From Candidatus Hydrothermales bacterium (GTDB taxonomy: Bacteria; Hydrothermota; Hydrothermia; Hydrothermales; JAJRUZ01): a DNA stretch of 64,000 bases. Location: assembly GCA_039630575.1 (NCBI GenBank), contig JBCNUW010000001.1:96659-160658 (forward strand), given 5' to 3'. The position numbers and the translations under genes are program-made. Of the stretch, positions 3,470 through 59,962 are shown piece by piece; position 1 is the stretch's first letter, and each line of letters starts with the position of its first letter. Under the pieces are notes generated by a model. That model had not been told where the DNA came from. It was given only the letters and a program-made list of their open reading frames with translations, and made no database searches.

Positions 3470-3482
3470 GGGTTCAATTCCC
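3470..3482 (+). promoter_or_regulatory. T-arm-like leader hairpin, copy 1
   Basis: GGG-TTCAATT-CCC, 28 nt before ATG 3511. Confidence 0.6.
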
Positions 3483-3510
3483 CTTAAAAAAATTATAAAG
3501 GAGTAATATT

Positions 3511-3780
3511 ATGAGGAAATTTTTGTTGCTAATCCCAATTTTTGGGATATTCCTTGTTTCCTGTCAGCTTCCACCTGAAATAAAAGAATTACCGGAAAAG
3601 ATGAACGAGTTTAAAACTAAAGTAGAGGAACTTGAGGGTAAGGTTTCTGATCTTGAGTCTAAAATTGAGGAGCTAAAAACAAAGATAGAAGAGATGGAAA
3701 AGGCAAAATCACAACCTGAAGTTAAAAAGGAAAGCAGCGGAACACAAACACCTAAAGTTCCACCCATAAGAAAAAAATAA
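3511..3780 (+). CDS. Small coiled-coil lipoprotein
   Basis: Lipobox-like LVSC, heptad repeats VEELEGKVSDLESKIEELKTKIEEM, AGGAG RBS. Confidence 0.75.
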   Translation: MRKFLLLIPIFGIFLVSCQLPPEIKELPEKMNEFKTKVEELEGKVSDLESKIEELKTKIEEMEKAKSQPEVKKESSGTQTPKVPPIRKK

Positions 3781-3792
3781 AGAGGTTTTAAG

Positions 3793-4569
3793 ATGAAAAA
3801 AATTTTATTAATTTCAGGTTTGTTTTTAATACTTTTAGTTTTTATAGGTTGTCCTGAAGATGAAGAATTGCCAACACCTAATGCAAGAATTGCAAGCATT
3901 TTAGAGCAGGGTGAAGGAATAAGACTCGAATGGGATCCTGTTGAAGGTGCTGATGGTTACAGAGTTAGAGTTGACGACGAATTGAAGTATGAAGGAACAA
4001 GTACATATTTTGAGTGGAAAACACCTGCATTAAAAATAGAAGTTTATGCCTATGCTGGGGATAAGGAATCTACCCCAAGAGTTTTTGACTTCACACCTGT
4101 TTCAAGAACTTCTCAAGAATTATGGGAAAGAAGCGCAGCTGGTAACAGTGGCTATGGCTGGAATGCAGATGGAACAGGTTCAAGCTACTCTTTGGGAGAT
4201 GCTGCAAATCATTCAAGAATAGATTTTTATTTGGATGACTTTACTGCTGGGACTGTAGACGTTTCAAATATTTACTTGGTAAGTCCTCATCACGGGGGAT
4301 TTAACGATACTGAAACAGGTTTTGCTGTTGAAACAGGTGGAACAGGTAATATAGCACCAGCTCCTGGAACCTATGATACTCCCAGACCACAAAGTCCAAT
4401 AGTATCTGGAGGAACTTACTTTTTATGGATAGATCACAGTAATAACGAGTGGACTAGTGATGATAATTTTGTTAAAATAAAGATAATTTCTATAGGCAAT
4501 GATGGAAAGGTTGTATTTGACTATTGGTTCCAGAAACAAGGTGGACTTCGCTGGCTAAAGACAAATTAA
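3793..4569 (+). CDS. Lipoprotein, FnIII-like N-domain plus possible HmuY-like C-domain
   Basis: FIGC lipobox; IRLEWDPVEGADGYRV (FnIII-like); FVKIKIISI...VVFDYWFQ end resembles HmuY-like folds. Confidence 0.55.
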   Translation: MKKILLISGLFLILLVFIGCPEDEELPTPNARIASILEQGEGIRLEWDPVEGADGYRVRVDDELKYEGTSTYFEWKTPALKIEVYAYAGDKESTPRVFDFTPVSRTSQELWERSAAGNSGYGWNADGTGSSYSLGDAANHSRIDFYLDDFTAGTVDVSNIYLVSPHHGGFNDTETGFAVETGGTGNIAPAPGTYDTPRPQSPIVSGGTYFLWIDHSNNEWTSDDNFVKIKIISIGNDGKVVFDYWFQKQGGLRWLKTN

Positions 4570-4592
4570 ATTAAATTAAATTAAATTAAATT
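4563..4592. repeat. (AAATT)6 microsatellite
   Basis: Six perfect pentamer copies spanning the stop codon, before the terminator. Confidence 0.8.
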
Positions 4593-4593
4593 T

Positions 4594-4622
4594 CCCCCCC
4601 AATATTTGGGGGGGTTTTTTTT
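4594..4622 (+). terminator. Rho-independent terminator
   Basis: CCCCCCCAA-TAT-TTGGGGGGG followed by T8. Confidence 0.85.
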
Positions 4623-4666
4623 ATAATAAGTTGAATATAAAATTAAATTTTTCCTAACATAAACTC

Positions 4667-5677
4667 ATGAGAAAAACTTTATCAATTATTTCTTTTTTAT
4701 TTTTGTTTTGTGTAAAAGAGCCTCACGAAGTAGGATGGTTCTTAACATTTAAAATACCTGGAAAAATGAAAAAGACTACTGTAAAAGAGGAAGTTCAAAA
4801 AAGCGATAAGTATAGAGTGATTGCAGATTCAGTTTTTAATGTTCAAAAGAAAATTCATTCAAATTTGAACTATTCTGGTTATGCTATTATAACTAGTGAT
4901 ACATTAAGGAGATTATTACCAAAGTTTATTGATACAACGCAAAGTGAATTTGGATCCTTAATTTTTCTTATTTATGGCGGGGCAAAGTATAAAGGAAATG
5001 TAATTACATCACCTTGCACATTAAAAACAAAAATAATTTCCTATTTTTGGAACGATAATATTGATACCTTTGGGATTTTTAAAATTGACAGCATGAAAAC
5101 TTCTGTTACTGGAAACTTTAAAATAACACACAGAATACCTTTTAACGATTTTCCTGCTGGACCCCATCTTTTTATAATTATTCCACAGATTTTAACAGGT
5201 AGTGCAAATTTTGATACAATTGAAACCTTCAAAGAGGGTCTTTTTGGAGCTAAAGTTTTAGGAGATAATATCATAACATTCTTGGACACAATAAAAAATG
5301 AAAGTGAAGACTTGAGAGAATTAGCAAGGCAAAATAGAATTGAAAAGATTTTCTTACATGCCGATGTTACACATAGCTTTCCTGTGAGGTTTTTTCTATC
5401 TATTATGGTGTTTTCAAACAGCGACACCCTTATGCCTATCAATAATCTTCCTTTTAAAAGCGCACCTAAAAACCAAGAGGGTGTATCAACTGATAGTACT
5501 AAATTTTCCATTGAAATAGATCTTTCTAAAGATGTTGTAGATCTATCAAAAGATTCTTTAATATTTTATAAAGCTTTTGCAATTGTAGACAGTCAGGGTA
5601 ATGCTTATATAAAACCTGAGGATTTCATAAAATTAAAAGGATATCTCGGAGTAAAACTCTATACATTGGAGCGATAA
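4667..5677 (+). CDS. Hypothetical exported/lipoprotein, beta-rich
   Basis: 336 aa ORF with N-terminal hydrophobic stretch ending FLFC; coupled to the OmpA-domain gene. Confidence 0.6.
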   Translation: MRKTLSIISFLFLFCVKEPHEVGWFLTFKIPGKMKKTTVKEEVQKSDKYRVIADSVFNVQKKIHSNLNYSGYAIITSDTLRRLLPKFIDTTQSEFGSLIFLIYGGAKYKGNVITSPCTLKTKIISYFWNDNIDTFGIFKIDSMKTSVTGNFKITHRIPFNDFPAGPHLFIIIPQILTGSANFDTIETFKEGLFGAKVLGDNIITFLDTIKNESEDLRELARQNRIEKIFLHADVTHSFPVRFFLSIMVFSNSDTLMPINNLPFKSAPKNQEGVSTDSTKFSIEIDLSKDVVDLSKDSLIFYKAFAIVDSQGNAYIKPEDFIKLKGYLGVKLYTLER

Positions 5678-5679
5678 AC

Positions 5680-10947: not shown

Positions 10948-10950
10948 GTT

Positions 10951-18804: not shown

Positions 18805-18805
18805 A

Positions 18806-21048: not shown

Positions 21049-21627
21049 TTACTGACCTGATGTAAGAACTATTGGAATATTTCTCTTAGAACCAAAACCA
21101 CCGATTGCATAACCTGAAGCTGCTTGTCCTGCTGCAGGTGTCCATTGTGCCGGGTTGTTTGGGTCAAGATCATATGAACCATACTGAATCATTCCAGCAT
21201 TAGCAGCATTGTAAGCTGGGTCAAAAACACCATTTCTATCGTTATCAACACCTCCAGGACCACTTTGAAAAGCATTTGTAGCAGCTCTAACAGGATTGTG
21301 AAAATCTACAGGCAGCAAAATTGGTCCAGTGGTAGTAGGCCTAAGACCAGATGCAGCTCCAGCCACTGATGTATTGTCACCCACTGGAGGGAGTCCTACA
21401 GCTTGCCTTGCTTGATCAACAGTAATAGCAAAATTTTGTGGATAAAATCCTTCTGTAGAGGTTGAGAATGCTTCTGCAGCTGTTTGTGAAGTTTTCATAT
21501 TACTCTGAACAGAAGCATCTTTTGCCTTTCCTACCATAGCAATGAAGTTGGGTATAGCTATAGCAGCAAGAATACCAATGATTACTACTACGATGAGTAG
21601 CTCTATTAAGGTAAAGCCTTTCTTCAT
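21049..21627 (-). CDS. Type IV major pilin-like protein
   Basis: MKKG|FTLIELLIVVVIIGILAAIAIPNF class III signal peptide; strong GGAGG RBS; own promoter and terminator. Confidence 0.88.
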   Translation of the reverse strand: MKKGFTLIELLIVVVIIGILAAIAIPNFIAMVGKAKDASVQSNMKTSQTAAEAFSTSTEGFYPQNFAITVDQARQAVGLPPVGDNTSVAGAASGLRPTTTGPILLPVDFHNPVRAATNAFQSGPGGVDNDRNGVFDPAYNAANAGMIQYGSYDLDPNNPAQWTPAAGQAASGYAIGGFGSKRNIPIVLTSGQ

Positions 21628-21654: not shown

Positions 21655-21667
21655 GGGATTTGAACCC
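21655..21667 (-). promoter_or_regulatory. T-arm-like leader hairpin, copy 2
   Basis: Minus strand GGG-TTCAAAT-CCC, 27 nt before the pilin ATG. Confidence 0.6.
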
Positions 21668-21694: not shown

Positions 21695-21710
21695 AGCAAA
21701 GTTTGTTCCA
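21695..21710 (-). promoter_or_regulatory. sigma54 -24/-12 promoter of pilin
   Basis: Minus strand TGGAACAAACTTTGCT versus consensus TGGCACGN4TTGCW, with exact GG-N10-GC spacing. Confidence 0.75.
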
Positions 21711-37279: not shown

Positions 37280-39923
37280 AATGTTCTTCCATTTCACCTT
37301 CTTCTTCAATCTGTGCGTGGGCAGCAGCTATTCTTGCTATAGGTACTCTAAAAGGTGAACAGGAAACATAATCAAGACCTATTTTATGACAGAATTTAAT
37401 TGACTCGGGGTCACCACCGTGTTCTCCACATATTCCAATTTTTAAGTTAGGGTTAGACTTTCTTCCCTTTTTAACAGCAGTTTTCATTAAATCACCGACT
37501 CCTTTTTGATCAATTGTTTTAAAAGGATCATCTTTTAAAATTCCTTTTTCAATGTAGTAGTGAAGGAATTTACCAATATCGTCTCTTGAAAAACCATAGA
37601 CTGTTTGAGTGAGATCATTTGTTCCAAAAGAGAAGAACTCTGCTACTTTTGCTATCTCACCTGCTGTTACACATGCTCTTGGCAGCTCTATCATCGTTCC
37701 AACTTTATAATCAATTTTTATACCCTCCTTTTCCATAACTTCCTTTGCTACCCTATCGACTATCTCCTTCTGTAAATCTAGTTCATCCTTTATTCCCACG
37801 AGGGGTATCATAATCTCTGGAATTGCTTTTATTCCCTCTTTTATAGCCTTTGTAGCAGCCTCAAAAATTGCTCTTGCCTGCATTTCTGTGATCTCTGGAT
37901 ATGTAATTCCGAGTCTACATCCTCTATGACCAAGCATCGGGTTCATTTCTTTAAGAGTTTCTGTAATCTTTTTAATCTCCTCTACACTTTTTCCTGTTCT
38001 TTGGGATAATTTCTTCATTGATTCCTCATCTTTTGGTAAAAATTCATGAAGGGGTGGATCAAGAGTTCTAATTGTCACAGGATAACCATCCATTTCTTTA
38101 AAAATTAAATAAAAATCTTCTCTTTGAAGAGGCAAAAGTTTTTGAAGAGCTTTCCTCCTCTCCTCTTCTGTTTCTGCAAGGATCATTTCTTGCATTATAT
38201 ATATTCTTTCCCCCTCAAAAAACATGTGTTCAGTTCTACATAAACCAATACCTTGAGCTCCAAATTCCCTTGCTTTTCTTGCATCTTGGGGTGTATCGGC
38301 GTTGGCTCTAACACCTAACTTCCTCACTCTGTCTGCAAAGTTCAGTAGTTCTGTAAACTCTGGGAATATTTCCGGTTGGATCAATTCAGCTTTCCCAACA
38401 TAGACCTTACCTGTATTACCATCAATACTTATAAAATCACCTTCATTTAAAATCTTCCCATTAACTTCTAAAATTTTTTTATGCTCATCTATATGAAGCA
38501 TTTCACAACCAACAACACAAGGTTTTCCCATCCCTCTTGCCACTACAGCAGCATGGGAGGTCATTCCTCCTCTTGCTGTTAAAATACCCTTTGCTTTTAC
38601 CATACCATGAATATCATCAGGAGAGGTTTCAAGTCTTACAAGTATTACAGGCTCACCCATTTCAGCTCTTTTAAGTGCCTCATCTGCTGTAAAATAAATT
38701 TTTCCAACTGCTGCACCAGGAGATGCCGGAAGACCAACTGCTATAGGTGTATTTCTTTTCTCAAAGTCATTAGAAATCTGTGGATGTAAGAGTTTTTCTA
38801 TATCCTCAGATGAAACCCTTTTGAGTGCGGTTTTCTCATCAATTATTCCCTCCTTTACCATACTTACAGCAATTTTAACAGCTGCCTTTGGAGTCCTCTT
38901 TCCAACCCTTGTTTGTAGAAAGTAAACCTTTCCTCTTTCTACTGTAAATTCCATATCCTGGATATCTTTATAGTGTCTTTCAAGTTTTTCAAAAATATTT
39001 ACTAGTTGCTCATAAATTGTTGGATTCTTTAACTTTAATTCCGAAAGAGGTAAAGGAGTCCTAATTCCAGCTACTACATCCTCACCTTGAGCATTGAATA
39101 GAAACTCACCGAAAACTTCCTTTTCTCCTGTTGAAGGGTTCCTTGAAAAGGCAACCCCTGTTCCTGAATCTTCTCCCATGTTCCCAAAAACCATAGCCTG
39201 AACATTACAGGCTGTTCCCCAACTGTCTGGAATTTTATAAATTCTTCTATACTCAACTGCTCTTTTGTTATTCCAAGATTCAAACACTGCTATTATAGCC
39301 TTCCATAACTGTTCTTTTGGATCTTGAGGAAATTCAATATTTTTCTCATTTCTAACAATATCTTTAAATTTTTCTATAATTTCCTTTAAATCATTCTCAT
39401 CTAATTCATAATCATATTTAATACCCTTCTCTTTCTTTTTATGCTCAAGCACTTCTTCAAACTTCCTTCTCTCAATACCTAACACAATATCTGAAAACAT
39501 CATTATGAATCTTCGGTAAGAATCATAGGCAAATCTAAAATTACCTGTTACGTTTCCAAGACCCAAAACAGTTTGGTCATTCAGCCCTAGATTCAAAACC
39601 GTATCCATCATTCCAGGCATAGAAGCTCTGGCTCCTGATCTTACAGATACAAGAAGTGGGTTTTTAGGGTCTCCAAACTTTTTGCCGGTTCTTTCTTCAA
39701 GTAACTTAAGAGCTTTTTCTACTTCTTTTATAAGTCCTTTAGGTAAAGTTTTCTTTTTAAAATAATATACACAAGCTTCAGTTGAAATAGTAAAACCAGG
39801 TGGAACATTTATACCTATTCTTGCCATCTCATGAAGATTTGCCCCCTTCCCTCCTAATAGATCTTTCATGTTTGCATTACCCTCAGCCTTATTTTCCCCA
39901 AAAGAGTAAACATATTTTTTCAT
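37269..39923 (-). CDS. ppdK: Pyruvate, phosphate dikinase
   Basis: LLGGKGANL, SVRSGA..SMPGMMDT, GGMTSHAAVVARG, GIGLCRTEHMF, SFGTNDLTQ, CGEHGG. Confidence 0.98.
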   Translation of the reverse strand: MKKYVYSFGENKAEGNANMKDLLGGKGANLHEMARIGINVPPGFTISTEACVYYFKKKTLPKGLIKEVEKALKLLEERTGKKFGDPKNPLLVSVRSGARASMPGMMDTVLNLGLNDQTVLGLGNVTGNFRFAYDSYRRFIMMFSDIVLGIERRKFEEVLEHKKKEKGIKYDYELDENDLKEIIEKFKDIVRNEKNIEFPQDPKEQLWKAIIAVFESWNNKRAVEYRRIYKIPDSWGTACNVQAMVFGNMGEDSGTGVAFSRNPSTGEKEVFGEFLFNAQGEDVVAGIRTPLPLSELKLKNPTIYEQLVNIFEKLERHYKDIQDMEFTVERGKVYFLQTRVGKRTPKAAVKIAVSMVKEGIIDEKTALKRVSSEDIEKLLHPQISNDFEKRNTPIAVGLPASPGAAVGKIYFTADEALKRAEMGEPVILVRLETSPDDIHGMVKAKGILTARGGMTSHAAVVARGMGKPCVVGCEMLHIDEHKKILEVNGKILNEGDFISIDGNTGKVYVGKAELIQPEIFPEFTELLNFADRVRKLGVRANADTPQDARKAREFGAQGIGLCRTEHMFFEGERIYIMQEMILAETEEERRKALQKLLPLQREDFYLIFKEMDGYPVTIRTLDPPLHEFLPKDEESMKKLSQRTGKSVEEIKKITETLKEMNPMLGHRGCRLGITYPEITEMQARAIFEAATKAIKEGIKAIPEIMIPLVGIKDELDLQKEIVDRVAKEVMEKEGIKIDYKVGTMIELPRACVTAGEIAKVAEFFSFGTNDLTQTVYGFSRDDIGKFLHYYIEKGILKDDPFKTIDQKGVGDLMKTAVKKGRKSNPNLKIGICGEHGGDPESIKFCHKIGLDYVSCSPFRVPIARIAAAHAQIEEEGEMEEHYGK

Positions 39924-39952: not shown

Positions 39953-39965
39953 AGGAATTGAACCC
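39953..39965 (-). promoter_or_regulatory. T-arm-like leader hairpin, copy 3
   Basis: Minus strand GGG-TTCAATT-CCT, 29 nt before the ppdK ATG. Confidence 0.55.
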
Positions 39966-43200: not shown

Positions 43201-43979
43201 AAGGGATTTATCGGTATTGAGCCTTTACCTAACTCAACAGAGTTCTTTATTGCACCATAAATGAACTCTTTAGCTTTTTTTATTGAGTCTAAAACATCGT
43301 AACCTAAAGCAAGATTTGCCGCAATACTTGCAGAAAAACTACAACCAGCTCCATGAAATTTTTTATTAACCATTACCTTTTCACTTTCCATAAGTACAAA
43401 GTCTTTACCATCATATACAACATCTATTGCCTTCTCTCCAAAATGTCCACCCTTTATTACAACGTATGATGGACCAAAATCTTTGATGATCTTAGCAGCT
43501 TTTTTTGCATCGTCGATACTTTCAACTTTAAAACCAGTAAAATTTTCTGCCTCATAACTGTTTGGAGTTACTACTAAAGCTAGTGGAAAAAGAGAATCAA
43601 GAAGTAGCTTTTTTGCTTCCTCTAAAAGCAATCTTTCACCTGAGCCTGCAAACACAACGGGATCTAAAACGTAATTTTTTAGTTTAAAAAAATTTATCCT
43701 ATCAGCAACAACCTCTATTATTTCTTTTGAATAAAGCATACCAGTTTTAAAAGCACTTATCTTGAAATCTTCACAAACCATATCGATCTGATCCCTTACA
43801 ACATTTGGGCTAACCATCTGAATTGATTTTACTCCCTTTGTATTCTGGGAAGTAATTGCAGTAATAACTGAAAGACCAAAAGTTCTGTGAACAGCAAAAG
43901 TTTTAAGATCAACTTGAATGCCAGCACCACCTCCACTATCACTTCCAGCGATAGTTAGGACACAGGGAAACTTATTCAA
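43185..43979 (-). CDS. thiD: HMP/HMP-P kinase ThiD
   Basis: IAGSDSGGGAGIQ, KTGML, LDPV, TPN..EA, KGGH, HGAGC. Confidence 0.93.
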   Translation of the reverse strand: MNKFPCVLTIAGSDSGGGAGIQVDLKTFAVHRTFGLSVITAITSQNTKGVKSIQMVSPNVVRDQIDMVCEDFKISAFKTGMLYSKEIIEVVADRINFFKLKNYVLDPVVFAGSGERLLLEEAKKLLLDSLFPLALVVTPNSYEAENFTGFKVESIDDAKKAAKIIKDFGPSYVVIKGGHFGEKAIDVVYDGKDFVLMESEKVMVNKKFHGAGCSFSASIAANLALGYDVLDSIKKAKEFIYGAIKNSVELGKGSIPINPLWIIS

Positions 43980-44574
43980 AGTTTATTTCCCTTTCTTCAG
44001 TTATTATACCTTTATATAGAAAGGAAATTTGTCTCAATAAAACATAATAGTCAAACTCATTTATTGCTGAAATTGCGTCCTTAGGAACAAAAATTTTATA
44101 GCCATGTAAAGCTGCTGACCCGGCTGTATGTAGTACACATATATTAGCCACAGTTCCTGTTATAACAAGATTTTTAATGTTATTTATTCTTAAAAGATGA
44201 TCAAATGGTGTACCAAAAAAAGCATCGTATCTAAGTTTTCTTATTACATAATCACCCTTCTGTGGTTTTAATTCCTCAATTATATCGGATCCCCATGAAT
44301 CCTTAACAGCGTGTTTTCCCCAAATTGGAAATTCAATATCTTCCTCTTCATGATAATCCTGTGTAAAAAAAATTTTAACATTACTTTTTCTTGCCTTACT
44401 TATTAAATTTTTAATGATAGGAACAGTTTTTTTAGCATCTGGCACAAATAGTGCACCTTTTTCATTAACAAAATCATTTTGCATATCCACTATAACTAAG
44501 GCACTTTCTTTTGAACTTAAAGTTACCTTTTTTTCGTAAAGGATCTCCGGTATTAAAACTTCTTTTTTATTCAT
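43972..44574 (-). CDS. Isochorismatase/nicotinamidase-family cysteine hydrolase
   Basis: VDMQNDF, RKLRYDAF, GTVANICV (D-K-C triad). Confidence 0.9.
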   Translation of the reverse strand: MNKKEVLIPEILYEKKVTLSSKESALVIVDMQNDFVNEKGALFVPDAKKTVPIIKNLISKARKSNVKIFFTQDYHEEEDIEFPIWGKHAVKDSWGSDIIEELKPQKGDYVIRKLRYDAFFGTPFDHLLRINNIKNLVITGTVANICVLHTAGSAALHGYKIFVPKDAISAINEFDYYVLLRQISFLYKGIITEEREINFE

Positions 44575-44591: not shown

Positions 44592-44604
44592 AGGATTTGA
44601 ACCA
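44592..44604 (-). promoter_or_regulatory. T-arm-like leader element, copy 4 (weaker stem)
   Basis: Minus strand TGG-TTCAAAT-CCT, 17 nt before ATG 44574. Confidence 0.45.
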
Positions 44605-46928: not shown

Positions 46929-48171
46929 AATAGTATCTCCCCCTTTTTATTGTCCATTTTTTTTCTTTTTTTACAAATTCACAGAGCACCTTTTCTATTT
47001 CTTCTATACTTTTTATTTCTACATCTTCAATTTTAACTATGAGGTCCCCTTCTTTTAGACCAATTTTGTCTGCATATTTACCCCTTTTTATATCGTTTAT
47101 GAAAACACCGTTTTTCCCATTTTTTAAATTTATTCCCATTACACTCAAAAAACTCTCAATTTTTGAACCAAGTTTAATATTTGTAACGTTCTTTTTACCA
47201 TTTCTCTCATAAACAAGAAGAACATTTTCATCTTTTCGCAAAAGATCCACTTTTTTCCTAAAATCTGAGTAGTTTTTAACAAGGTCTTTACCTATTTTTA
47301 AAATGATGTCACCTGGCTCTAAACCAGCTCTGTCTGCAGGACCATCTTGAAGAACTGAAGTAATGACAATACCTTTATCTATGGGTTTCACTTCAAGTCC
47401 CAAAAAACCTCTTGGATAATAAGAATACAGCTTCAAGTAGTTTACAACAATTTTTAAAAGATTTGATGGAATTGCAAAACCTATTCCTTCAAAACCTCCT
47501 GATTTTGAAACAATAAAGGTATTCATTCCGATAACTTCACCTCTTGCATTAAGGAGTGGGCCACCTGAATTACCAGGATTAATAGAAGCGTCTGTTTGAA
47601 TCATACCTCTATAAATCCTTTCACCTTCTCCCTTAAAAGTTCTGTTTAAAGCACTTATTACTCCAACAGTAACAGTTGGCTCTACATCTTCCCAGAGATA
47701 CCCAAAAGGGTTTCCCATAGCTATTGCCCATTCTCCTCTTTCAAGTTTATCAGAATCAGCAAAATTAAGATAAGGTAAATTTTTGCCATTTATCTTTAAA
47801 AGAGCAATATCAAGGGAATAATCCTTACCTACAACCTTAGCTATAAAATTTCTTCCGTCTGGTAAGGAAACTACTATACTGTCAGAATTACTAATAACAT
47901 GCTCGTTTGTTAAAATGTAACCATCCTCTGAGATTATAAATCCTGAGCCTTGCGAGGATATTCGTTCTTTATATTCAGGAAACTCAAAAAATTCAAGGAA
48001 ATCTCTGAAAAATGGATCATTAAAAATTGATGGTGCAAGAGAAACATACCTTGTAGTGAAACAGGTTATTGAAACAACAGCATTTTGACATTTTTTTACT
48101 GCATTTATTATTGCATTTTCTCTATCTAAGGCTATTTCCTTTTGAAGAAGTAGTAAAATCGTAAAAATCAT
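46900..48171 (-). CDS. HtrA/DegP serine protease with two PDZ domains
   Basis: [29 protein letters not shown]. Start moved to ATG 48171 (ATGA overlap). Confidence 0.92.
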
Positions 48172-48863
48172 TTTCCTAGTAGGGACTCCCAATCTTCAAG
48201 AAATCTCTTTATACCAATATCTGTTAAGGGATGTTTTAGCATTTTTTCTATAACATCTGGAGGTACTGTAACAATATCTGCACCAAGGGTAAAAGCCTCG
48301 ATAACATGAATAGGATGTCTCACACTAGCAACTAAAAGTTCTGAATCAAAATTATTAAAAGATAAAATTTGGGATAAAATTCTTACAATTTCCATACCCT
48401 CATTTGAAATATCATCGAGTCTTCCAATAAATGGAGAAATGAATCTTGCTCCTGCTTTTAATGACAAAAGACCTTGTGATGGAGAAAATATTAAAGTCAT
48501 ATTTACATCTATACCCTCTGATGTAAGTTTCTTTGTTGCTTTTAAACCCTCCTCTCCGAAGGGTATTTTTATCACTATATTTTTATTAATCTTTGCTAGT
48601 TCTATACCTTCCCTCACCATTCCCTCTTCATCTAAGGCTATAACCTCAGCAGATACAGGACCTTCGACAATTTCACAAATTTTCTCTAAAATTTCTTTAC
48701 TTTTTTCAAAAATCTCTCTTTTATCTTTTGGTTTAAAATCAGGATAGAGCCTTTTAATTTCCTTTGATAAAAGAGTAGGATTAGTTGTAGCTCCTTCAAT
48801 GATACCTAAAGATTTAAACCTTTTAAGTTCATCCAAGTTTGAGGTATCAGCAAAAATCTTCAT
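48168..48863 (-). CDS. tal: Transaldolase (TalC/Fsa family)
   Basis: TTNPTL, VSAEV, KIP, SPFIGR, HPLTD.G. Glu in SAEV and Phe in SPF favour transaldolase over FSA. Confidence 0.88.
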
Positions 48864-50169
48864 CCTTAAGTCTCTCCTCTTTAAAAGGGATAGAACCTTT
48901 TAGTGAAAAAATTCTAATGAAAAAGACTGTAAAAATTAAAGCATTTATAAATGTGGCAAAGCTATTTAAGGAAAGTAAGAAAATTATTTTATTTTTAAAA
49001 TCTATTATAAAAAAAGGTAGTGTTAATATTAAAAGCCAAAGGAGTAGATTCTTAAAAACTATTCCTTCCTTTTTTATTGCAAAAAATACTCTTGAGAAAA
49101 ATCTTGAAAAAAGATAAAAAAGAAGAGATAAAGAAAGAAGCAAAAATTCATCAGTATAAAATTTAAACTTATTCTTTGGAAAAAAAAGATGAAGAAAGGA
49201 CTTACCGATTGATACTATGAAGATTGTAAAAAATACTAAAGAGATAAAAATAAGAATTGAAGAAAGAACGATTGTTCTAAAAAATTTTTTTCTTTTTCCC
49301 TCATAATAGGAACTGGAAATGTGGGGATAAACTGGCACAAAATAGGAATTAAATAGAAGTTTAACAGCCTGAAAGATTGAAATTTCGGCTGTAAAATTAC
49401 CGATTAAATCATCAGCAACATTTTTTAATTTTAAAAGCAAAATAGGGTAACTAAAGTAACTTTGAATGAGTGTATTTGAAAAACCCATTGAGAAAATTCC
49501 CCCTTTTAAAAAATTTAAATTTATCTTAAAGAGAAAACTCCTTTTAAGATAAATTAAATAAAAAAGGAAAAATAAAAAATTAGAAAGTTCAGATAAAATG
49601 TAAACTACTATAAATAAATTAATCCTATCTATCCCCTTAATAAAGTAAAAAAAACCAAAAAGTAAGAAAAATAATCCTTTTAAAATGTTAACTAAACTAA
49701 AGGCATAAAAAAGCCTTTTTCCTATAAGGAAGCCAATCCCTATTGAGGAAAAAATTGAAAAAAAATGAACTAAGAAAGCACCAAATAAGATGAAAAAATC
49801 ATTGTTAAAAAATTTCTTTAATAATAAATCTTTTAGAATTAAGAAAAATAAAATAGAGAGAAGAAATACAAGAGATATATACGTAAAAGATTCATCAACT
49901 AAATCCTTGATTTTTTCACTTTCACCCTTAGCCTTCAATTCGACAATTTTTCTTGAAAGATAGTCTCTAAATCCAGATCCAAGTAAAAAAGAGGTAAAAT
50001 TATAAAAGGAATAGAAAACTCCAAGAATCCCAACACCCTCTGAACCAATTACTTTTCCTGAAAATGACAAAAATAGAAAATAAAAGAAGGATTGTGAAAA
50101 GTGGCCAAAGGTAGTCCAAATTGTTCCACCTATTAAACCCTTTGTAAATAATAATTTTTTTAAAATAAT
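48847..50169 (-). CDS. Wzx/MOP-family flippase-like membrane protein
   Basis: Multi-TM protein. The frame is open upstream of 50070 and encodes the typical first helix. Probable ATT start at 50169 after GGAGG. Confidence 0.7.
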
Positions 50170-51440: not shown

Positions 51441-51456
51441 AGCAAATTTCATACCA
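51441..51456 (-). promoter_or_regulatory. sigma54 -24/-12 promoter
   Basis: Minus strand TGGTATGAAATTTGCT with exact spacing, 22 nt upstream of ATG 51418. Confidence 0.65.
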
Positions 51457-51504
51457 TCTTTATTATAAAAAAATGCACAAATTTTATTCAAAAAATTTAA
51501 AAAT

Positions 51505-52926: not shown

Positions 52927-52970
52927 ATTTACCTCCTTATGCAAAATAGTTTATAATTTTATGAAAATCT

Positions 52971-54134: not shown

Positions 54135-54155
54135 TTTTATCTTATAATTATAAGA

Positions 54156-54422
54156 ATGGGAGAAAAAAATTTCTCATTTTTTGAATGTAAAAGTTGTGGA
54201 ACTCCAGTTGGTACAAGGAAAAATAAAGAACCAAACTTCTGTCCGCTTTGTAGAGGCAAAATGGTAAAAATAGAAACGGAAATAGACTTAAAAATAAAAA
54301 TTTCTTGTCCTGATTGTAAAAATGAATTTTTAGTTGAGGAAAATTTTGTTCCCTATAAATGTGTATTTTGTAATTTTACTTTTACTGTTTCACCTAACCG
54401 TAGATTTGAAGAGAGACTCTAA
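54156..54422 (+). CDS. Small double zinc-ribbon protein
   Basis: Four CxxC motifs (CKSC, CPLC, CPDC, CVFC) in 88 aa. Confidence 0.7.
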   Translation: MGEKNFSFFECKSCGTPVGTRKNKEPNFCPLCRGKMVKIETEIDLKIKISCPDCKNEFLVEENFVPYKCVFCNFTFTVSPNRRFEERL

Positions 54423-56810: not shown

Positions 56811-57691
56811 TATTCTGCTTTTCCGTGACATGCTGGTCCACAAGTTCCCTTTTTTTCAGTTTTTATGAAATCAAAATTTAAGACATAGTTGTAAGGTCCA
56901 AATTTTTTACCACCCTCAACAAGTGCAAAATTTTTTGAAAAGTGAGGGTTATGACAAAAGGAACAAACTATTCCTTTTTCTCTCTTTACATGAACTTTAT
57001 GTAAGTTTTCCTCGCCTCTTTTGAAAGAAGATTTCTCAGAAAAAAGATCTTCCAAATTATGACAATTAAAACATAACTCATACTGAAGATGAGTAAAAAA
57101 TACATAAGGTTTATTTGGATACATTGAGTTTAATAACATGGTGAAATTAGATTGATGAGGATTATGACATGTTATGCAATTTTCAATAGGTGGATGTTTA
57201 TACTTTTTTACTCTATACTGTTCTTCCATTTCCTTATGACAATCAAAACATAGTGAATTAGTTTCCCTTAATAAATATGACCTTTTATCATTTCCATGAA
57301 CATCATGACAACTTTTGCATTTACCATCAACAAAGGGCGCATGAAAACTTAATGCAGTTTTTGATAGTTCCTTATGACAGCTTGAACATAAATATGGTAG
57401 TTTTTCTCTTAGCAAAAAGTTCAAAGGTGATGAGTGAGGGTTGTGACAATGCGTGCATTTGTTATCGTTTGGGGGGTGTTTAAATTTTGATTTATTTTCA
57501 TGACAATTTAGGCAAATACTGTTAATATTTTCAATCTTTTTAAAGGGGTGTTCACCTTCAAGGTTATGGCATAATGAACAATCTTCTTTCACAGGTTGAT
57601 GTAAAACTCTTTCTTCTATCAAAATATCATGACAACCTCTTTCTGTGCAATCCCTTTCTTGTGAGATTAAAAAAATTATTAACATAATCAT
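56807..57691 (-). CDS. Multiheme cytochrome c (9 CxxCH + CX4CH + CX3CH)
   Basis: Paired HxP..CxxCHxPH..LL..LCxxCH repeats; terminal CTERGCH and CGPACH. Confidence 0.9.
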   Translation of the reverse strand: MIMLIIFLISQERDCTERGCHDILIEERVLHQPVKEDCSLCHNLEGEHPFKKIENINSICLNCHENKSKFKHPPNDNKCTHCHNPHSSPLNFLLREKLPYLCSSCHKELSKTALSFHAPFVDGKCKSCHDVHGNDKRSYLLRETNSLCFDCHKEMEEQYRVKKYKHPPIENCITCHNPHQSNFTMLLNSMYPNKPYVFFTHLQYELCFNCHNLEDLFSEKSSFKRGEENLHKVHVKREKGIVCSFCHNPHFSKNFALVEGGKKFGPYNYVLNFDFIKTEKKGTCGPACHGKAEY

Positions 57692-59265
57692 TTTATCTTA
57701 AAATCTCTTTTTAAAAGAAAGTAAAAAACAAAATTGTGCTCCTCTTTTGGGTAAATCAAATAAATATATTCAAAATTTAATTTTAAATTCAAAACGTTAT
57801 AATTCCTTTCAAAACCGACAGTCAAACTGTTTTCGAGCTTATTTCTAAAGTATAACCTCTCCTCTAGAGAAAAAATATTAAATAGTTTTAAAGGAATTTT
57901 AAGTGTAAATTTGAAAAAACTCCTTGTTAATACCAAAAAATCCGTCCTTATATATTCTTGAAAATAAGATAAATTAAGGGGCATTTGCCTAATTTTAAGA
58001 TCAATTCTTGTGCGATATTCAGTCCAAATATTCATCTTACTATTTAAAAAAGAAAAATTCCTATCAAAATTAAAGTTGAGTGTAATAATATATCTTGGTG
58101 AATCGTAAATTAAAGTTAAATTTGTATTAAAACCAAAAATTTTTTGGTTCCTTACAGGCCATTTATCATTGAAAGCTCTATAGTACAAATTATAGAAAAA
58201 TTTTAAAAATCTAAAATTCAAGAAAAAATTTTGCTCAAAAAGACCCCTATTTCCAACCAAATAGCCCCACCCTTTTCCTAACGGATCCTGACTGAAAGAA
58301 AAGGAAATATAAGGAGAAAATGTAAAAAATCTAGGGTAATTTAAAAATTTAAGGTCATATATCTGAGCTACTCTCTCATAAAACCTTGTTCCTCTTGGTA
58401 AAGAACCTGTTTCAAAATCTATAAAGGTACTAGAAATTATTCTATCTGAAAAATACTTCTTAAAACTTGAATTTAAACTTTGAGAGGTGAAAATTTTTGA
58501 TTTTTTAAAAGAGTAGTAAAAATCAAAAATGTAATCAAAATTTTTTAATTTAATATAATTAAAATTTGAGTTAGTGTAGCCATAGTTCTTTCTGAATAAA
58601 TATATTATGTTTAACTTGATTTTCCTATCTTTAGTGTTATTGTTGTAATTAAAATTTACATTTTCAAATCCTTGACCATAATCTGGAAGTTCTTTTTTGT
58701 AATTGAAATAAAAGGAATGTTTTTTTAAGGAAAAACTTGAATTAAAACCGAGGGATTTTAAAGTCAATAAGACTTCCTTATTATACGAATAGAAAAAATT
58801 AAATTTTGGAAAATTACTTAAATTAAGGGACTGCGAGATTGTATAAGTTGATTTTTTTTTAGAAAATAATATTTTATTCTCCCTTTTAAGTTCCTCTGTT
58901 TTAAAAGAGAATCTAAAAGGAAAAGAAGTTTTTGAAAAAATACTAACATCAAGAAAAAAGGGGGATTTTAAAAAAATTTTCTCTTTTTCTTTATCTAAAT
59001 TTTCCTTAAAAACTTGCCAAATAAAGTATGTTCTAAAGTCGAAAGATATAAATTCTCTTTTATACACAAAACCATTTATAATTAAGTTTAAATAATTCTC
59101 ATAATCTTTGTAAAAGGGTTTTGCTAAAGATCTCTCAAATTTACCAAAAGAAAAATATCTCTCTGAAAAGATGCTTAAGTTAAAATTTGTTATCTCAGAA
59201 TTTAAATTTTTTAAAAGAAATAAATGGGGGAGAAGAAATATTCTCCCCCATTTTATCCTAAACAC
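57688..59265 (-). CDS. Probable outer-membrane beta-barrel (porin of cytochrome cluster)
   Basis: About 525 aa of alternating aromatic strands ending FYFLLKRDF; sits between cytochrome genes. Start uncertain. Confidence 0.65.
   Translation of the reverse strand: MFRIKWGRIFLLPHLFLLKNLNSEITNFNLSIFSERYFSFGKFERSLAKPFYKDYENYLNLIINGFVYKREFISFDFRTYFIWQVFKENLDKEKEKIFLKSPFFLDVSIFSKTSFPFRFSFKTEELKRENKILFSKKKSTYTISQSLNLSNFPKFNFFYSYNKEVLLTLKSLGFNSSFSLKKHSFYFNYKKELPDYGQGFENVNFNYNNNTKDRKIKLNIIYLFRKNYGYTNSNFNYIKLKNFDYIFDFYYSFKKSKIFTSQSLNSSFKKYFSDRIISSTFIDFETGSLPRGTRFYERVAQIYDLKFLNYPRFFTFSPYISFSFSQDPLGKGWGYLVGNRGLFEQNFFLNFRFLKFFYNLYYRAFNDKWPVRNQKIFGFNTNLTLIYDSPRYIITLNFNFDRNFSFLNSKMNIWTEYRTRIDLKIRQMPLNLSYFQEYIRTDFLVLTRSFFKFTLKIPLKLFNIFSLEERLYFRNKLENSLTVGFERNYNVLNLKLNFEYIYLIYPKEEHNFVFYFLLKRDFKIK
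59222..59253 (-). terminator. 13-bp hairpin terminator/attenuator after tetraheme gene
   Basis: AAATGGGGGAGAA-6 nt-TTCTCCCCCATTT, followed on the minus strand by ATTTCTTTT. Confidence 0.75.
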
Positions 59266-59292
59266 AATAAAATTTAGAATTTAATTTACTAT

Positions 59293-59925
59293 TTACTTTA
59301 TATGACAATCAAGGCAAATTTGACTGTTTGTGGTGTCACCCCTTAAGAAACTATAGGGGGGTTGAGCAACATCTACATTATGGGGATCATGGCAAGTAGA
59401 GCAAGTCATCACTGAATCAGCACCAGGTTGTATACCTGAAAAATTATAGAGTGGATAACCCCATGTTGAAGGAGGGTTAAATTTAGTAGGCGGCAATCTT
59501 CCCGGTGCCACATCCATATCGACTGGATGAGAGTAAATAAGAGTATCATTTGTTCCACTTGTAACATCAGGAGGATCTTGAACAGCTGCACCAACATTCC
59601 TTGGACCAAATGAGTAAAGTGTCCCAAGATCAGCTCTTGTTTGAGTTCCATCATGACAGGAAAGACAAGCATAACTTATCCAAGAGGCTCTTGTCATTGG
59701 GTCTGTATAGGTTCCGTTATATAGAGCTGAAATAGTGGGTACATAAACCCTATTCCAAAGATAATAAAAATTTTGACTGGGATTAGCATTGTGCGGTGTA
59801 TGGCAGTATATGCAAACTTGTCCTGCATTGGGTCTGTTAAAATCATGCCTACTTCCTACAATTGTTGCATGAAGCCAAATATAAAAGGTTGAAAGAACTA
59901 GAACTACTATAATCATTTTCTTCAT
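59293..59925 (-). CDS. Tetraheme cytochrome c, OmcE-like (candidate nanowire subunit)
   Basis: Sec signal; HDF..QVCIYCHTPHNA..LWNR..ISYACLSCHDG..HPV..PLY..CSTCHDPH..FLR..SQICLDCHIK. Confidence 0.85.
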   Translation of the reverse strand: MKKMIIVVLVLSTFYIWLHATIVGSRHDFNRPNAGQVCIYCHTPHNANPSQNFYYLWNRVYVPTISALYNGTYTDPMTRASWISYACLSCHDGTQTRADLGTLYSFGPRNVGAAVQDPPDVTSGTNDTLIYSHPVDMDVAPGRLPPTKFNPPSTWGYPLYNFSGIQPGADSVMTCSTCHDPHNVDVAQPPYSFLRGDTTNSQICLDCHIK

Positions 59926-59949
59926 AAACTTTACCTCCTAACATATAAA

Positions 59950-59962
59950 GGGACTTGAACCC
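59950..59962 (-). promoter_or_regulatory. T-arm-like leader hairpin, copy 5
   Basis: Minus strand GGG-TTCAAGT-CCC, 24 nt before ATG 59925. Confidence 0.6.

What the first reader, a model, noticed from the sequence alone, without database searches (positions are those of the whole stretch)
3470..59962. tRNA T-arm mimic (GGTTCAANTCC) in the 5' leaders of five unrelated genes
Seen: the element occurs at 3470 (+), 21655 (-), 39953 (-), 44592 (-) and 59950 (-). Each copy is intergenic, in the sense orientation of the next gene, and 17-29 nt before its start codon. The genes are a lipoprotein, the major pilin, ppdK, a cysteine hydrolase and the OmcE-like cytochrome. It follows a sigma70 promoter in one case and a sigma54 promoter in another, so it is probably transcribed rather than a promoter box. 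Known: the sequence equals the tRNA TPsiC arm (G53-UUCRANY-C61) with a 2-3 bp G-C stem. Hand estimate at an assumed ~30% GC gives about 0.05 chance hits on both strands. Inference: a cis RNA element, such as a substrate for T-loop enzymes (TruB, TrmI, TrmFO), a 5' stabiliser, an RNase site or a translation enhancer for abundant proteins.
Basis: partly seen in the sequence, partly recalled or inferred. Interest (0 to 1): 0.82.

Follow-up and report, generated by a model that had tools for sequence, protein, structure and literature searches.

The report
tRNA T-loop hairpins before start codons
In one family of uncultured hot-spring bacteria, about 140 unrelated genes carry a tiny hairpin that copies the T-loop of tRNA about 20 bases before the start codon, mostly where sister bacteria have a strong ordinary ribosome-binding site, so it is probably an undescribed signal for starting protein synthesis.

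Summary
GGTTCAANTCC occurs 5 times in the window against 0.16 expected, each copy 18-30 nt before a start codon and in sense. A sixth, variant copy lies at 48887-48897.

It is a genome-wide feature. The 1.89 Mb genome has 113 strict copies outside tRNA genes. With the relaxed motif, 140 of 190 sites lie 10-40 nt before an ORF start.

In leaders without a Shine-Dalgarno (SD) sequence the spacing is tight, at 17-24 nt in 62 of 71. The base pair flanking GG/CC covaries. The variable loop positions match the T-loop rule GUUCNANNC.

35 of 103 copies abut or lie inside the preceding gene of the same operon. Where a promoter is expected, a -10-like box lies just upstream. The motif is therefore read as transcribed and tied to the start codon.

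Only this family has it: 31-62 pattern matches per genome against 0-7 elsewhere in the phylum, with one repeat-derived exception.

Orthologues in a sister family carry a strong SD in 35 of 42 cases, against 139 of 355 for other genes.

Best reading (0.55): an RNA start signal that took over from strong SDs.

The scan reported this element before (e1-7028513, e1-5318325, e1-6981224). My tests agree and add context. No expression data were available.

The parts
3471..3481 (+). Leader T-loop motif copy 1 (GGTTCAATTCC, flanked g...c), 29 nt before the ATG at 3511 of an 89-aa lipoprotein-like ORF
3428..3456 (+). Sigma70-like promoter match TTGAAA-17-TATAAT; its -10 box ends 14 nt before copy 1, so the motif would start near +8 of the transcript
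   Evidence: consensus match only
21656..21666 (-). Copy 2 (GGTTCAAATCC, flanked g...c), 28 nt before the ATG of the pilin-like gene 21049-21627, which also has a GGGAGG Shine-Dalgarno
21696..21710 (-). Sigma54-type -24/-12 match TGGAAC-N5-TTGC, 29 nt upstream of copy 2
   Evidence: only match in the window; 14 of 100 shuffles had at least one
39954..39964 (-). Copy 3 (GGTTCAATTCC), 30 nt before the ATG of pyruvate phosphate dikinase 37269-39923; no Shine-Dalgarno
44593..44603 (-). Copy 4 (GGTTCAAATCC), 18 nt before the ATG of the isochorismatase-family gene 43972-44574; no Shine-Dalgarno
48887..48897 (-). Copy 6, not in the finding: variant GGTTCTATCCC, 23 nt before the ATG of the transaldolase gene 48168-48863. 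It lies inside the 3' end of the preceding same-strand ORF
59951..59961 (-). Copy 5 (GGTTCAAGTCC, flanked g...c), 25 nt before the ATG of the multihaem cytochrome gene 59293-59925, which has an AGGAGG Shine-Dalgarno

Best explanation
The motif is a short RNA hairpin in the mRNA leader. It has a 2-3 bp (sometimes 5 bp) stem closed by G-C and a 7-nt loop that follows the tRNA T-loop rule U54 U55 C56 N A58 N Y.

In one family of WOR-3 bacteria it serves as a translation-initiation signal that does not rely on Shine-Dalgarno (SD) pairing. Placed about 20 nt before the AUG, it would help recruit and position the small ribosomal subunit on an otherwise unstructured, A/U-rich leader. During the family's history it took the place of strong SD sequences in about 140 mostly well-conserved, probably highly expressed genes.

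Shown here:
- the anatomy of the element;
- the tight spacing to the start codon;
- the covarying flanking pair;
- the operon-internal positions;
- the restriction to one family;
- the replacement of ancestral strong SDs.

Inferred:
- that the element is transcribed in every case;
- that it acts positively on initiation;
- that a trans-acting reader holds it folded.
For: 1. Genome-wide scale. Of 155 GGTTCRANYCC sites in the genome, 42 lie in the 45 tRNA/tmRNA genes and 113 do not. With the relaxed motif, 190 sites lie outside tRNA-like contexts, and 140 of them have an ORF of at least 50 aa starting 10-40 nt downstream.

2. Spacing. The gap from the motif to the ATG peaks at 17-23 nt in 63 of 113 sites. 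In the cleaned gene set of 103 of 1492 genes, 62 of 71 SD-less leaders have 17-24 nt, with a median of 20. Leaders that also have an SD are looser, with a median of 25. The motif-to-SD distance is not fixed and ranges from 3 to 24 nt. Genus g2 (G005) shows the same geometry, with medians of 22 and 25.

3. Base pairing. The pair flanking GG/CC is Watson-Crick in 63 of 103 copies, against 36.2 in shuffles, and 0 of 5000 shuffles reached it. Both A-T and G-C are used. In G005 the figure is 28 of 34. Orthologous leaders switch A-U to G-C, for example at rplL and gap.

4. Loop rule. An unbiased census of GG-N7-CC sites at 15-30 nt gives loops of the form TTC[A>T>C,G]A[A/T][T>C]. Of loop sizes 5-9, size 7 is the most enriched (7.56 against 1.93 per position). 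Sizes 8 and 9 are also raised (5.25 and 3.19 against 1.61 and 1.32), which I read, untested, as GGG/CCC offsets of the same motif.

5. Tied to the start codon, not to a promoter.
- No fixed upstream box exists, and there is no leaderless -10 box.
- 19 copies lie inside the preceding same-strand ORF and 16 lie within -2 to +5 nt of its stop codon. These include the rplL, rpoA and tuf junctions.
- Prevalence is highest at same-strand gaps of 20-100 nt (47 of 174). It is lower for divergent genes (30 of 310) and for gaps of 200 nt or more (7 of 208). These one search counts were made before 15 tRNA-derived calls were removed.
- Where a promoter must exist, 17 of 30 divergent genes have a -10-like hexamer 5-16 nt upstream of the motif. 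The figure for operon-internal copies is 8 of 35.

6. Replacement of SD.
- In 1.19 Mb of sister-family genome G006, 0 of 1014 genes have a non-tRNA motif.
- Orthologues of motif genes have an SD of at least 5 nt in 35 of 42 cases, against 139 of 355 for other genes (odds ratio 7.8, p=4e-8).
- Genes with an SD of at least 7 nt in G006 have the motif in G000 in 26 of 87 cases. Genes with an SD below 5 nt have it in 7 of 223.
- infC: the 5 f1 genomes, plus one f1-like contig filed in the f2 bin G010, have the motif and no SD. Four f2 genomes have GGAGG and no motif.
- rpsU is similar.

7. Conservation. G005 orthologues keep the motif in 14 of 17 cases, against 4 of 148 for other genes.

8. Family restriction. 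f1 genomes have 31-62 pattern matches each. The other 146 genomes of the phylum that were scanned have 0-7, apart from one case explained by a repeat.

9. The hairpin alone is weak. The median pairing probability is 0.09 at 37 C, which argues for a specific reader.

10. Gene set. It includes tuf, rpsL, rplL, rpoA, frr, infC, efp, dnaK, gap, rho and ftsZ. I named these from their N-termini, not with a family search. Motif genes are more conserved than other genes (58.7% against 50.4% identity to G006, p=0.011).
Against: - There is no expression, 5'-end, ribosome or modification evidence. Transcription and a positive effect on initiation are inferred.
- Within G000 the motif does not exclude SD. 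An SD of at least 5 nt occurs in 26 of 103 motif genes and 313 of 1389 others (p=0.54). The motif is therefore not simply an alternative to SD inside one genome.
- About three quarters of all genes have neither signal, so the organism can start translation without either. The motif could boost expression by another route.
- No reader was found.
  - The anti-SD is intact in f1 and f2.
  - 16S rRNA has no family-specific complement to the motif.
  - TruB, a TrmI-like (GCD14) enzyme and a U5-methyltransferase-family enzyme are present in both families, mostly as a single match. G001 gave two matches that abut in one frame, the TrmI-like enzyme was not found in G010 (67% complete), and the U5-methyltransferase was not found in the f3 genome G011.
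  - bS21 differs only slightly.
- The gene model is crude. It uses ORFs of at least 100 aa and the first in-frame ATG.
- The outgroup is one genome, sampled at 57%.
- Kin genomes are not independent samples.
Confidence: 0.55

Rival explanations
1. The element is an RNA hairpin bound by a trans factor, but its main job is not ribosome recruitment. It could mark mRNAs for T-loop modification (pseudouridine by TruB, m5U, m1A). It could protect the 5' end, or define a processing site between cistrons. Or it could be the operator of a global post-transcriptional regulator. The tight spacing would arise because the hairpin must abut the ribosome footprint and leave no naked A/U-rich RNA.
For: - The conserved and variable positions match GUUCNANNC, the consensus for TruB/Pus4. 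E. coli TruB modifies a 3-bp stem-loop at about 0.3 times the tRNA rate (PMC13492117, passages read).
- TruB, a TrmI-like enzyme and a U5-methyltransferase-family enzyme are all encoded.
- In promoter-proximal cases the motif lies within about 10 nt of the predicted 5' end.
- 16 copies start right at the upstream stop codon.
- The motif coexists with SD at the background rate.
Against: - The hairpin is predicted to be mostly unfolded on its own, so it is a poor passive stabiliser.
- 19 copies lie inside upstream coding sequence, where ribosomes would unwind them.
- The link with ancestral strong SDs and the loss of those SDs is more directly explained by a start signal.
- The T-loop enzymes are equally present in the sister family that lacks the element.
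Confidence: 0.3
2. The motif is a DNA element. It would be a promoter box for a family-specific sigma or transcription factor, or an operator, with transcription starting just downstream and very short leaders.
For: - The motif is strictly oriented and lies at a fixed distance from gene starts, as a promoter of very short leaders would.
- It is partly palindromic (GG...CC).
- No RNA data show that it is transcribed.
Against: - The flanking positions covary as base pairs, with both A-T and G-C in use. Independent half-site preferences would not produce this.
- -10-like and -35/-10-like matches are enriched 5-16 nt upstream of the motif, not downstream.
- A sigma54-type site lies upstream of the pilin copy.
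- No -10 signal lies between the motif and the ATG.
- A third of the copies sit at or inside operon junctions such as rplJ-rplL and fusA-tuf.
Confidence: 0.08
3. The copies are remnants of tRNA genes, integration sites or a small mobile repeat, and have no function of their own.
For: The core is identical to the commonest T-arm sequence of the genome's own tRNAs. One unrelated genome of the phylum (G083) does carry a T-arm-like 17-mer as part of a dispersed repeat.
Against: - Nothing beyond 11-13 nt is shared among the copies.
- No tRNA model matches at the window's sites, even at E<=10.
- Position 57 is free, unlike in tRNA.
- The placement relative to start codons is extremely non-random.
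- The motif is kept at orthologous genes across genera while the flanks diverge.
Confidence: 0.02

Closest known systems
tRNA T-arm / T-loop RNA motif (positions 52-62 of tRNA; part of Rfam RF00005)
   Same: The sequence rule is the same: G52 G53 U54 U55 C56 N A58 N Y C61 C62, with a 7-nt loop closed by G-C. The U54 and A58 equivalents are conserved across the strict and relaxed motif classes, where those positions are fixed by definition, and are T in 103 and A in 104 of the 121 GG-N7-CC sites of the unbiased census.
   Different: It stands alone in mRNA leaders, with no D-loop partner, acceptor stem or other tRNA part. The stem is usually only 3 bp. Position 57 may be U or C, where tRNA has a purine (the tRNA rule is recalled; the leader data are).
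Shine-Dalgarno ribosome-binding site
   Same: It is a short, oriented signal at a fixed distance before start codons of many unrelated genes. It occupies the leaders of genes whose sister-family orthologues have a strong SD.
   Different: It is not complementary to the 16S 3' end, which is unchanged. It lies about 20 nt upstream, not 5-10 nt. It carries a structure signal, the covarying pair. It is confined to one family.
T-loop-like sites in eukaryotic mRNAs modified by TRUB1/Pus4 (GUUCNANNC) and TRMT6/61A
   Same: The consensus is the same and the context is a short stem-loop (PMC13492117, passages read; PMC5340967, seen in the search listing only).
   Different: Those sites are scattered, mostly in coding or 3' regions, and are rarely modified. 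Here the motif is placed at one position relative to start codons in about 140 genes of a bacterium. The paper states that TruB 'only targets tRNAs in bacteria'.
Upstream translational enhancers and standby sites of bacterial mRNAs (A/U-rich S1-binding leaders, phage T7 gene 10 epsilon), and SD-poor initiation in Bacteroidota with a sequestered anti-SD
   Same: They are elements upstream of the SD position that raise initiation. SD use is low in this genome, at 23% of genes with an SD of at least 5 nt against 7% at a control position.
   Different: The known enhancers are recalled, not tested here. They are single-stranded or pair with rRNA, and none is a conserved T-loop hairpin. Sequestration of the anti-SD in this lineage was not tested.
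tRNA-mimic operators of single genes (E. coli thrS operator; recalled)
   Same: Part of a tRNA is copied in a leader close to the start codon.
   Different: That element mimics the anticodon arm, is bound by the gene's own product and represses one gene. Here a T-arm mimic serves about 140 unrelated genes.

Membership tests
tRNA gene or tRNA remnant (RF00005) | Cloverleaf, or at least an acceptor/T-arm minihelix, detectable by ARAGORN or the Rfam model | tested here: not met
   ARAGORN finds 0 genes in the window. No Rfam match lies at any of the six sites at gathering score or at E<=10. The flanks are A/T-rich and unrelated to each other.
T-loop structural motif | 7-nt loop closed by a G-C pair, with U at loop position 1 and A at position 5 (the reverse-Hoogsteen partners) | tested here: met
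   Loop size 7 is the most enriched of sizes 5-9. T at loop positions 1 and 2 and A at position 5 are near-invariant. Positions 4, 6 and 7 are free.
T-loop structural motif | Three-dimensional T-loop fold with an intercalating base from a partner | not testable with these tools
   Nearest-neighbour folding predicts that the stem is mostly open. No RNA 3D or complex tool was available.
TruB/Pus4 substrate (GUUCNANNC stem-loop) | Sequence GUUCNANNC in a 7-nt loop on a stem of at least 2-3 bp | tested here: met
   The strict and relaxed motif classes fit it. The consensus and the tolerance for a 3-bp stem come from PMC13492117.
TruB/Pus4 substrate (GUUCNANNC stem-loop) | Pseudouridine actually present at the U55 equivalent | not testable with these tools
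   No RNA or modification data. TruB is encoded as a single copy in f1 and f2 alike.
Shine-Dalgarno sequence | Complementarity to the 3' end of 16S rRNA, 5-10 nt before the start | tested here: not met
   The 16S 3' end is ...GGATCACCTCCTTTC in f1 and f2. The only 16S complement of the motif is the universal GGAATTGA near position 930, which does not fit the commoner A variant. The motif lies 17-24 nt upstream.
Sigma70-type promoter element | Fixed distance to a -10 box or to the transcription start, with no requirement for base pairing | tested here: not met
   No conserved box lies at a fixed distance on either side. -10-like sites lie at a variable 5-16 nt upstream. The flanks covary.
Dispersed repeat (REP/MITE-like) | Shared sequence beyond the core, with copies alignable over tens of bases | tested here: not met
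   Only 11-13 nt are shared. By contrast, the G083 copies share more than 60 nt of flank.

The most novel reading that the evidence does not exclude
The T-loop hairpin is a ribosome-binding site of a new kind. It is read by shape and tertiary contact, not by base pairing with the anti-Shine-Dalgarno. It would dock on the 30S platform near the mRNA exit, or on a tRNA-elbow-binding site such as the L1 stalk. That contact alone would set the start codon about 20 nt downstream. One bacterial family has rewired about 140 genes from SD to this signal, including tuf, infC, rpsL and rpoA.
Probability: 0.4. Interest if true: 0.95.

Novelty: categorically new. Interest (0 to 1): 0.86.

Why it matters
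Start-site selection in bacteria is explained by three things: SD pairing, unstructured A/U-rich leaders bound by S1, and leaderless starts. This element would be a fourth mode, a structured tRNA-like module at a fixed distance from the start codon. It arose recently enough that sister genomes still show the SD state, so the replacement can be followed gene by gene.

If real, it would do several things.
- It would give a natural system for asking how ribosomes can be recruited without rRNA-mRNA pairing.
- It would improve gene-start prediction in this lineage.
- It would show that the T-loop, the most reused RNA tertiary module, has also been adopted by mRNAs on a genome-wide scale.

If the element instead turns out to be a target of TruB, TrmI or a similar enzyme, it would be the first bacterial case of programmed, position-specific T-loop modification of mRNAs.

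Tried and rejected
- **Expression data.** The look-up of sequencing runs listed 3 DNA runs of one study and no RNA holder. Read laying was therefore not used, and nothing can be said about transcription.
- **16S rRNA.** G000 has none assembled. In three f1 and five f2 relatives the 3' end and anti-SD are identical. The only 16S complement of the motif is the universal GGAATTGA near position 930, present in all families (7 of its 8 letters in the f9 outgroup), and it fits only the T variant. It was rejected as a pairing partner.
- **Leaderless-promoter model.** There is no TAnnnT at -12 to -7. Rejected.
- **Motif as a -35 box.** The geometry does not fit the ATG distance (reasoning). Rejected.
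- **Signal-peptide link.** 23 of 118 against 241 of 1374, p=0.61. Rejected.
- **Family-specific T-loop enzyme.** TruB, GCD14 (TrmI-like) and the U5-methyltransferase family are present in f1 and f2, mostly as a single match. G001 gave two abutting matches in one frame, GCD14 was not found in G010 (67% complete), and the U5-methyltransferase was not found in G011 (f3). No lead.
- **bS21.** It is present in all 13 genomes, and the f1 proteins are 4-7 residues longer at the C-terminus. This is too slight to build on.
- **Domain gains in G000 relative to G006 orthologues.** 54 pairs differ by at least 30 aa, mostly because of start-calling differences. None looked translation-related on reading their N-termini; no family search was run on them.
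- **Apparent out-of-family copies.**
  - G010 holds two IF3 genes, 80% and 56% identical to G000's, so it is probably a mixed bin.
  - Most hits in the other out-of-family genomes lie in what read as coding sequence, with no ORF start at the leader spacing; four hits in f7 and f10 genomes have an ATG 18-25 nt downstream and were not followed up.
  - The 18 hits in G083 are 17 copies of one dispersed repeat plus one other.
- **ATG depletion between motif and start.** 4 of 71 against 13.4 expected. This is partly built into my start definition, so I do not use it.
- **Literature.** Searches for 'WOR-3' with 'Shine-Dalgarno' gave 0 papers. Searches for T-loop/tRNA-like/leader/Shine-Dalgarno, T-arm/mimic/translation initiation and WOR-3/Hydrothermales names listed no paper describing such an element. 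I judged this from titles and abstract starts only. One search failed on a term format and was re-sent.

Full report
**Observation**

GGTTCAANTCC occurs five times in the 64-kb window, at 3471 (+), 21656, 39954, 44593 and 59951 (all -). Dinucleotide shuffles give 0.16 on average, and none of 100 reached 5. The window has no tRNA gene. No Rfam family matches at these sites, even at E<=10.

Each copy is in sense of the next ORF and ends 29, 28, 30, 18 and 25 nt before its ATG. Pfam names the downstream genes as a pilin-like protein, pyruvate phosphate dikinase, an isochorismatase-family hydrolase and a multihaem cytochrome. The fifth is a small lipoprotein-like ORF with no family over cut-off. 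A sixth, variant copy (GGTTCTATCCC, 48887-48897, -) lies 23 nt before a transaldolase gene.

A sigma70-like site (11 of 12 matches) ends 14 nt before copy 1. A sigma54-type TGGAAC-N5-TTGC ends 29 nt before the pilin copy. Both are consensus matches only.

**Scale**

The window's genome was laid for scripts (1.886 Mb, 95 contigs, 30.3% G+C). GGTTCRANYCC occurs 155 times in it. 42 sites lie in the 45 tRNA/tmRNA genes found by ARAGORN, and 113 lie outside. Of those 113, 85 have an ATG-initiated ORF of at least 50 aa starting 10-40 nt downstream. Five look like tRNA or tmRNA pieces that ARAGORN missed. Of the other 23, I read eight as leaders of very small genes, of GTG or TTG starts, or of a start that my script missed.

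One-mismatch variants at the right distance show what is tolerated: GGTTCTAWTCC, GGTTCCA..CC, GGTTGAAATCC, GGTTTAATTCC and GGTTCAAAGCC. With this relaxed motif there are 190 sites outside tRNA-like contexts. 140 of them have an ORF start 10-40 nt downstream (128 ATG, 6 GTG, 6 TTG).

Antisense copies show no such placement. The apparent antisense cluster is the same motif read one base off.

**Anatomy**

I used a crude gene model: 1495 non-overlapping ORFs of at least 100 aa, each starting at the first in-frame ATG, of which 1492 have 100 nt of upstream sequence. After I removed 15 calls that were tRNA T-arms, 103 of the 1492 genes carry the motif 12-40 nt upstream.

- **Spacing.** In leaders without an SD the gap to the ATG has a median of 20 nt, and 62 of 71 fall in 17-24 nt. 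In leaders that also have an SD the median is 25 nt and the spread is wider. The distance from the motif to the SD is not fixed and ranges from 3 to 24 nt.
- **Flanking pair.** The position just outside GG/CC is Watson-Crick paired in 63 of 103 copies, against 36.2 expected, and 0 of 5000 shuffles reached that. Both A-T and G-C are used. The next two positions show weaker excesses, 51 against 42.1 and 47 against 36.5.
- **Loop.** A census of every GG-N7-CC site at 15-30 nt from a start, with no assumption about the loop, gives TTC[A>T>C,G]A[A/T][T>C]. Loop size 7 is the most enriched of sizes 5-9. The smaller excesses at sizes 8 and 9 are what GGG/CCC offsets of the same motif would give, which I did not test. 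This is the T-loop rule. It is also the GUUCNANNC consensus of TruB/Pus4 (PMC13492117, passages read). Position 57 is not restricted to a purine as I recall it is in tRNA.
- **Stability.** Nearest-neighbour folding predicts that the G53-C61-equivalent pair forms with a median probability of 0.09 at 37 C, and less at 60-75 C. It exceeds 0.5 in 31 of 103 leaders. The hairpin therefore probably needs a partner to be held folded.
- **Spacer.** The spacer is 87% A+U.

**RNA or DNA, promoter or start codon**

No conserved box lies at a fixed distance upstream or downstream of the motif. There is no leaderless-type -10 box at -12 to -7. -10-like hexamers are enriched at a variable 7-16 nt upstream.

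Divided by context, a -10-like hexamer lies 5-16 nt upstream in 17 of 30 divergently transcribed motif genes. The figure is 8 of 35 for copies that abut the preceding gene, and 136 of 1374 at the equivalent position of non-motif genes (counted before the tRNA clean-up).

In the cleaned set the contexts are as follows.

| Context of the motif copy | Copies |
|---|---|
| Inside the 3' end of the preceding same-strand ORF | 19 |
| Starts within -2 to +5 nt of the preceding stop codon | 16 |
| 6-59 nt after the preceding stop codon | 27 |
| 60 nt or more after the preceding stop codon | 11 |
| Upstream neighbour is divergent | 26 |
| No neighbour called | 4 |

The operon-internal copies include the junctions before rplL, rpoA and tuf. 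I named these genes from their N-termini. Prevalence is highest for same-strand gaps of 20-100 nt (47 of 174). It is low for gaps of 200 nt or more (7 of 208) and for overlapping genes (2 of 441) (before the clean-up).

The constant relation is therefore with the start codon. Where a promoter is needed, it is placed so that the transcript begins just before the hairpin. Together with the covarying pair and the strict orientation, this makes an RNA element far more likely than a DNA box.

**Distribution**

The tRNA-excluding pattern WWNGGTTCWANTCCNWW gives 31-62 matches in each of the six genomes of family f1, which has two genera. It gives 0-6 in 25 other genomes of the same order and class.

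A scan of 151 genomes drawn from the phylum gives the same picture, with 0-7 outside f1 and one genome with 18. Those 18 are 17 identical copies of a longer dispersed repeat plus one other hit, which is a different thing.

The six hits in the f2 genome G010 include three leader-type copies. However, G010 holds two IF3 genes, 80% and 56% identical to G000's, so it is probably a mixed bin.

The nearest named records found with IF3 are titled 'candidate division WOR-3 bacterium'.

**What stood there before**

I fetched the five largest contigs of sister-family genome G006 (1.19 of about 2.1 Mb) and 0.40 Mb of G005, the other f1 genus.

| Genome (family) | Genes examined | Genes with a non-tRNA motif | SD of at least 5 nt at -20 to -4 | Same test at control position |
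|---|---|---|---|---|
| G006 (f2) | 1014 | 0 (all 8 motif calls are tRNA T-arms) | 33% | 7% |
| G005 (f1, genus g2) | 330 | 34 | 33% | 10% |
| G000 (f1, genus g1) | 1492 | 103 | 23% | 7% |

Orthologues were taken as reciprocal best BLASTP hits with at least 70% coverage and aligned N-termini, which gave 397 pairs with G006.

- G006 orthologues of motif genes have an SD of at least 5 nt in 35 of 42 cases, against 139 of 355 for the rest (odds ratio 7.8, p=4e-8). The same 42 genes have such an SD in G000 in only 10 cases.
- Seen from the other side, G006 genes with an SD of at least 7 nt correspond in G000 to the motif in 26 of 87 cases, to an SD only in 37, and to neither in 24. G006 genes with an SD below 5 nt correspond to the motif in 7 of 223 cases.
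- At infC, the five f1 genomes with a match, and one f1-like contig filed in the f2 bin G010, have the motif 21-23 nt before the ATG and no SD. Four f2 genomes have GGAGG and no motif.
- At rpsU, the f2 genomes and the one f4 genome have an 11-nt SD (AAGGAGGTGAT; the one f3 genome examined does not), while all six f1 genomes have the motif plus a shorter SD of 5-7 nt (GGAGG core).
- Within the family, G005 orthologues keep the motif in 14 of 17 cases, against 4 of 148 for non-motif genes. Meanwhile the flanks diverge and the flanking pair switches between A-U and G-C.
- Motif genes are more conserved than others, at 58.7% against 50.4% median identity to G006 (p=0.011).

**Interpretation**

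The most economical reading is an RNA start signal. In one family it took over from strong Shine-Dalgarno sequences at genes that need high expression.

In SD-less leaders the hairpin seems to set the position, hence the tight 17-24 nt. With an SD present the SD sets the position, and the hairpin can sit further away.

I put this reading at 0.55. It rests on comparative and positional evidence only.

Points against it:
- Inside G000 the motif and the SD co-occur at the background rate (26 of 103 against 313 of 1389).
- Most genes have neither signal.
- No reader was identified. The anti-SD is intact. 16S rRNA has no family-specific complement to the motif. TruB, a TrmI-like enzyme and a U5-methyltransferase-family enzyme are present in both families, mostly as a single match. 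bS21 differs only by a few C-terminal residues.

The main rival (0.3) keeps the RNA hairpin and its reader but gives it another primary role: T-loop modification, 5' protection, processing or global regulation. A DNA-level element (0.08) and tRNA or repeat remnants (0.02) are poorly supported. The remaining 0.05 is left for readings I have not thought of.

**Prior art**

Four full-text searches listed no paper describing such an element. I saw titles and abstract starts only, apart from PMC13492117, where I read passages.

This scan has reported the same phenomenon before: once on another piece of this genome (e1-7028513) and twice in other genomes (e1-5318325, e1-6981224). My tests were run independently and agree with those reports. 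They add the following:
- the operon-internal and promoter-proximal contexts;
- the unbiased loop census;
- the predicted weakness of the hairpin;
- the larger orthologue statistics;
- the infC and rpsU series;
- explanations for the two apparent out-of-family cases.

**Limits**

- The gene model is crude.
- There is one outgroup genome, sampled at 57%.
- The genomes are related, so they are not independent samples.
- Gene names outside the window were read from N-termini.
- No RNA run was listed for this organism, so transcription, 5' ends, ribosome binding and modification all remain untested.

Noticed in passing
   Followed up: yes
G010 (loci L131 and the second IF3 match at G010:C2:28167-28712): This f2 genome bin holds two IF3 genes, 80% and 56% identical to G000's, and two 16S matches. 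It is probably a mixture of an f1-like and an f2 organism, which explains its leader-type motif copies.
   Followed up: partly
G083, loci L212-L229: 17 identical copies of TTGGGTTCTAATCCCAA sit inside a dispersed repeat with more than 60 nt of conserved flank. In about seven of the copies an ATG lies about 20 nt downstream of the hairpin, and at least four of these open a similar short reading frame (MKDALRR-like). It is a T-arm-like hairpin in a repeated leader, in a different family of the same phylum. Its nature is unknown.
   Followed up: partly
rpsU leaders, loci L199-L211: The f2 genomes and the one f4 genome have an 11-nt perfect Shine-Dalgarno (AAGGAGGTGAT) before the bS21 gene; the one f3 genome examined does not. 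This is reminiscent of the bS21 autoregulation described in Bacteroidota (recalled). f1 genomes have the T-loop motif plus a shorter SD, and a bS21 that is 4-7 residues longer at the C-terminus.
   Followed up: partly
16S rRNA of f1 relatives (L007, L009, L015), alignment columns 891-913: Family-specific differences in 16S cluster in a hairpin apex that I take to be helix 26 (assignment recalled, not tested). This lies near the mRNA exit. Its two strands, GGGTTCCC and GGGAATCC, contain the two halves of the leader motif. This is probably coincidence.
   Followed up: no
genome-wide, genes with neither motif nor SD: A weak T(-13,-12) A(-11 to -8) T(-7,-6) pattern lies before the ATG of 887 genes. 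It could reflect a subset of leaderless or very short-leader transcripts.
   Followed up: no
window 21696-21710 (-): A sigma54-type -24/-12 match lies upstream of the pilin-like gene, as in other bacteria with PilR-dependent pilin genes (recalled). It is the only such match in the window.
   Followed up: partly
G000 C35:4334 and C83:173: Two contig-end copies of a tmRNA-like 3' end (...GGACGCGGGTTCAATTCCCGCCGCCTCCACC). At least one of them seems to have been missed by ARAGORN; I did not check which, if either, it called. Either the tmRNA gene is split across contig ends or it is duplicated.
   Followed up: no
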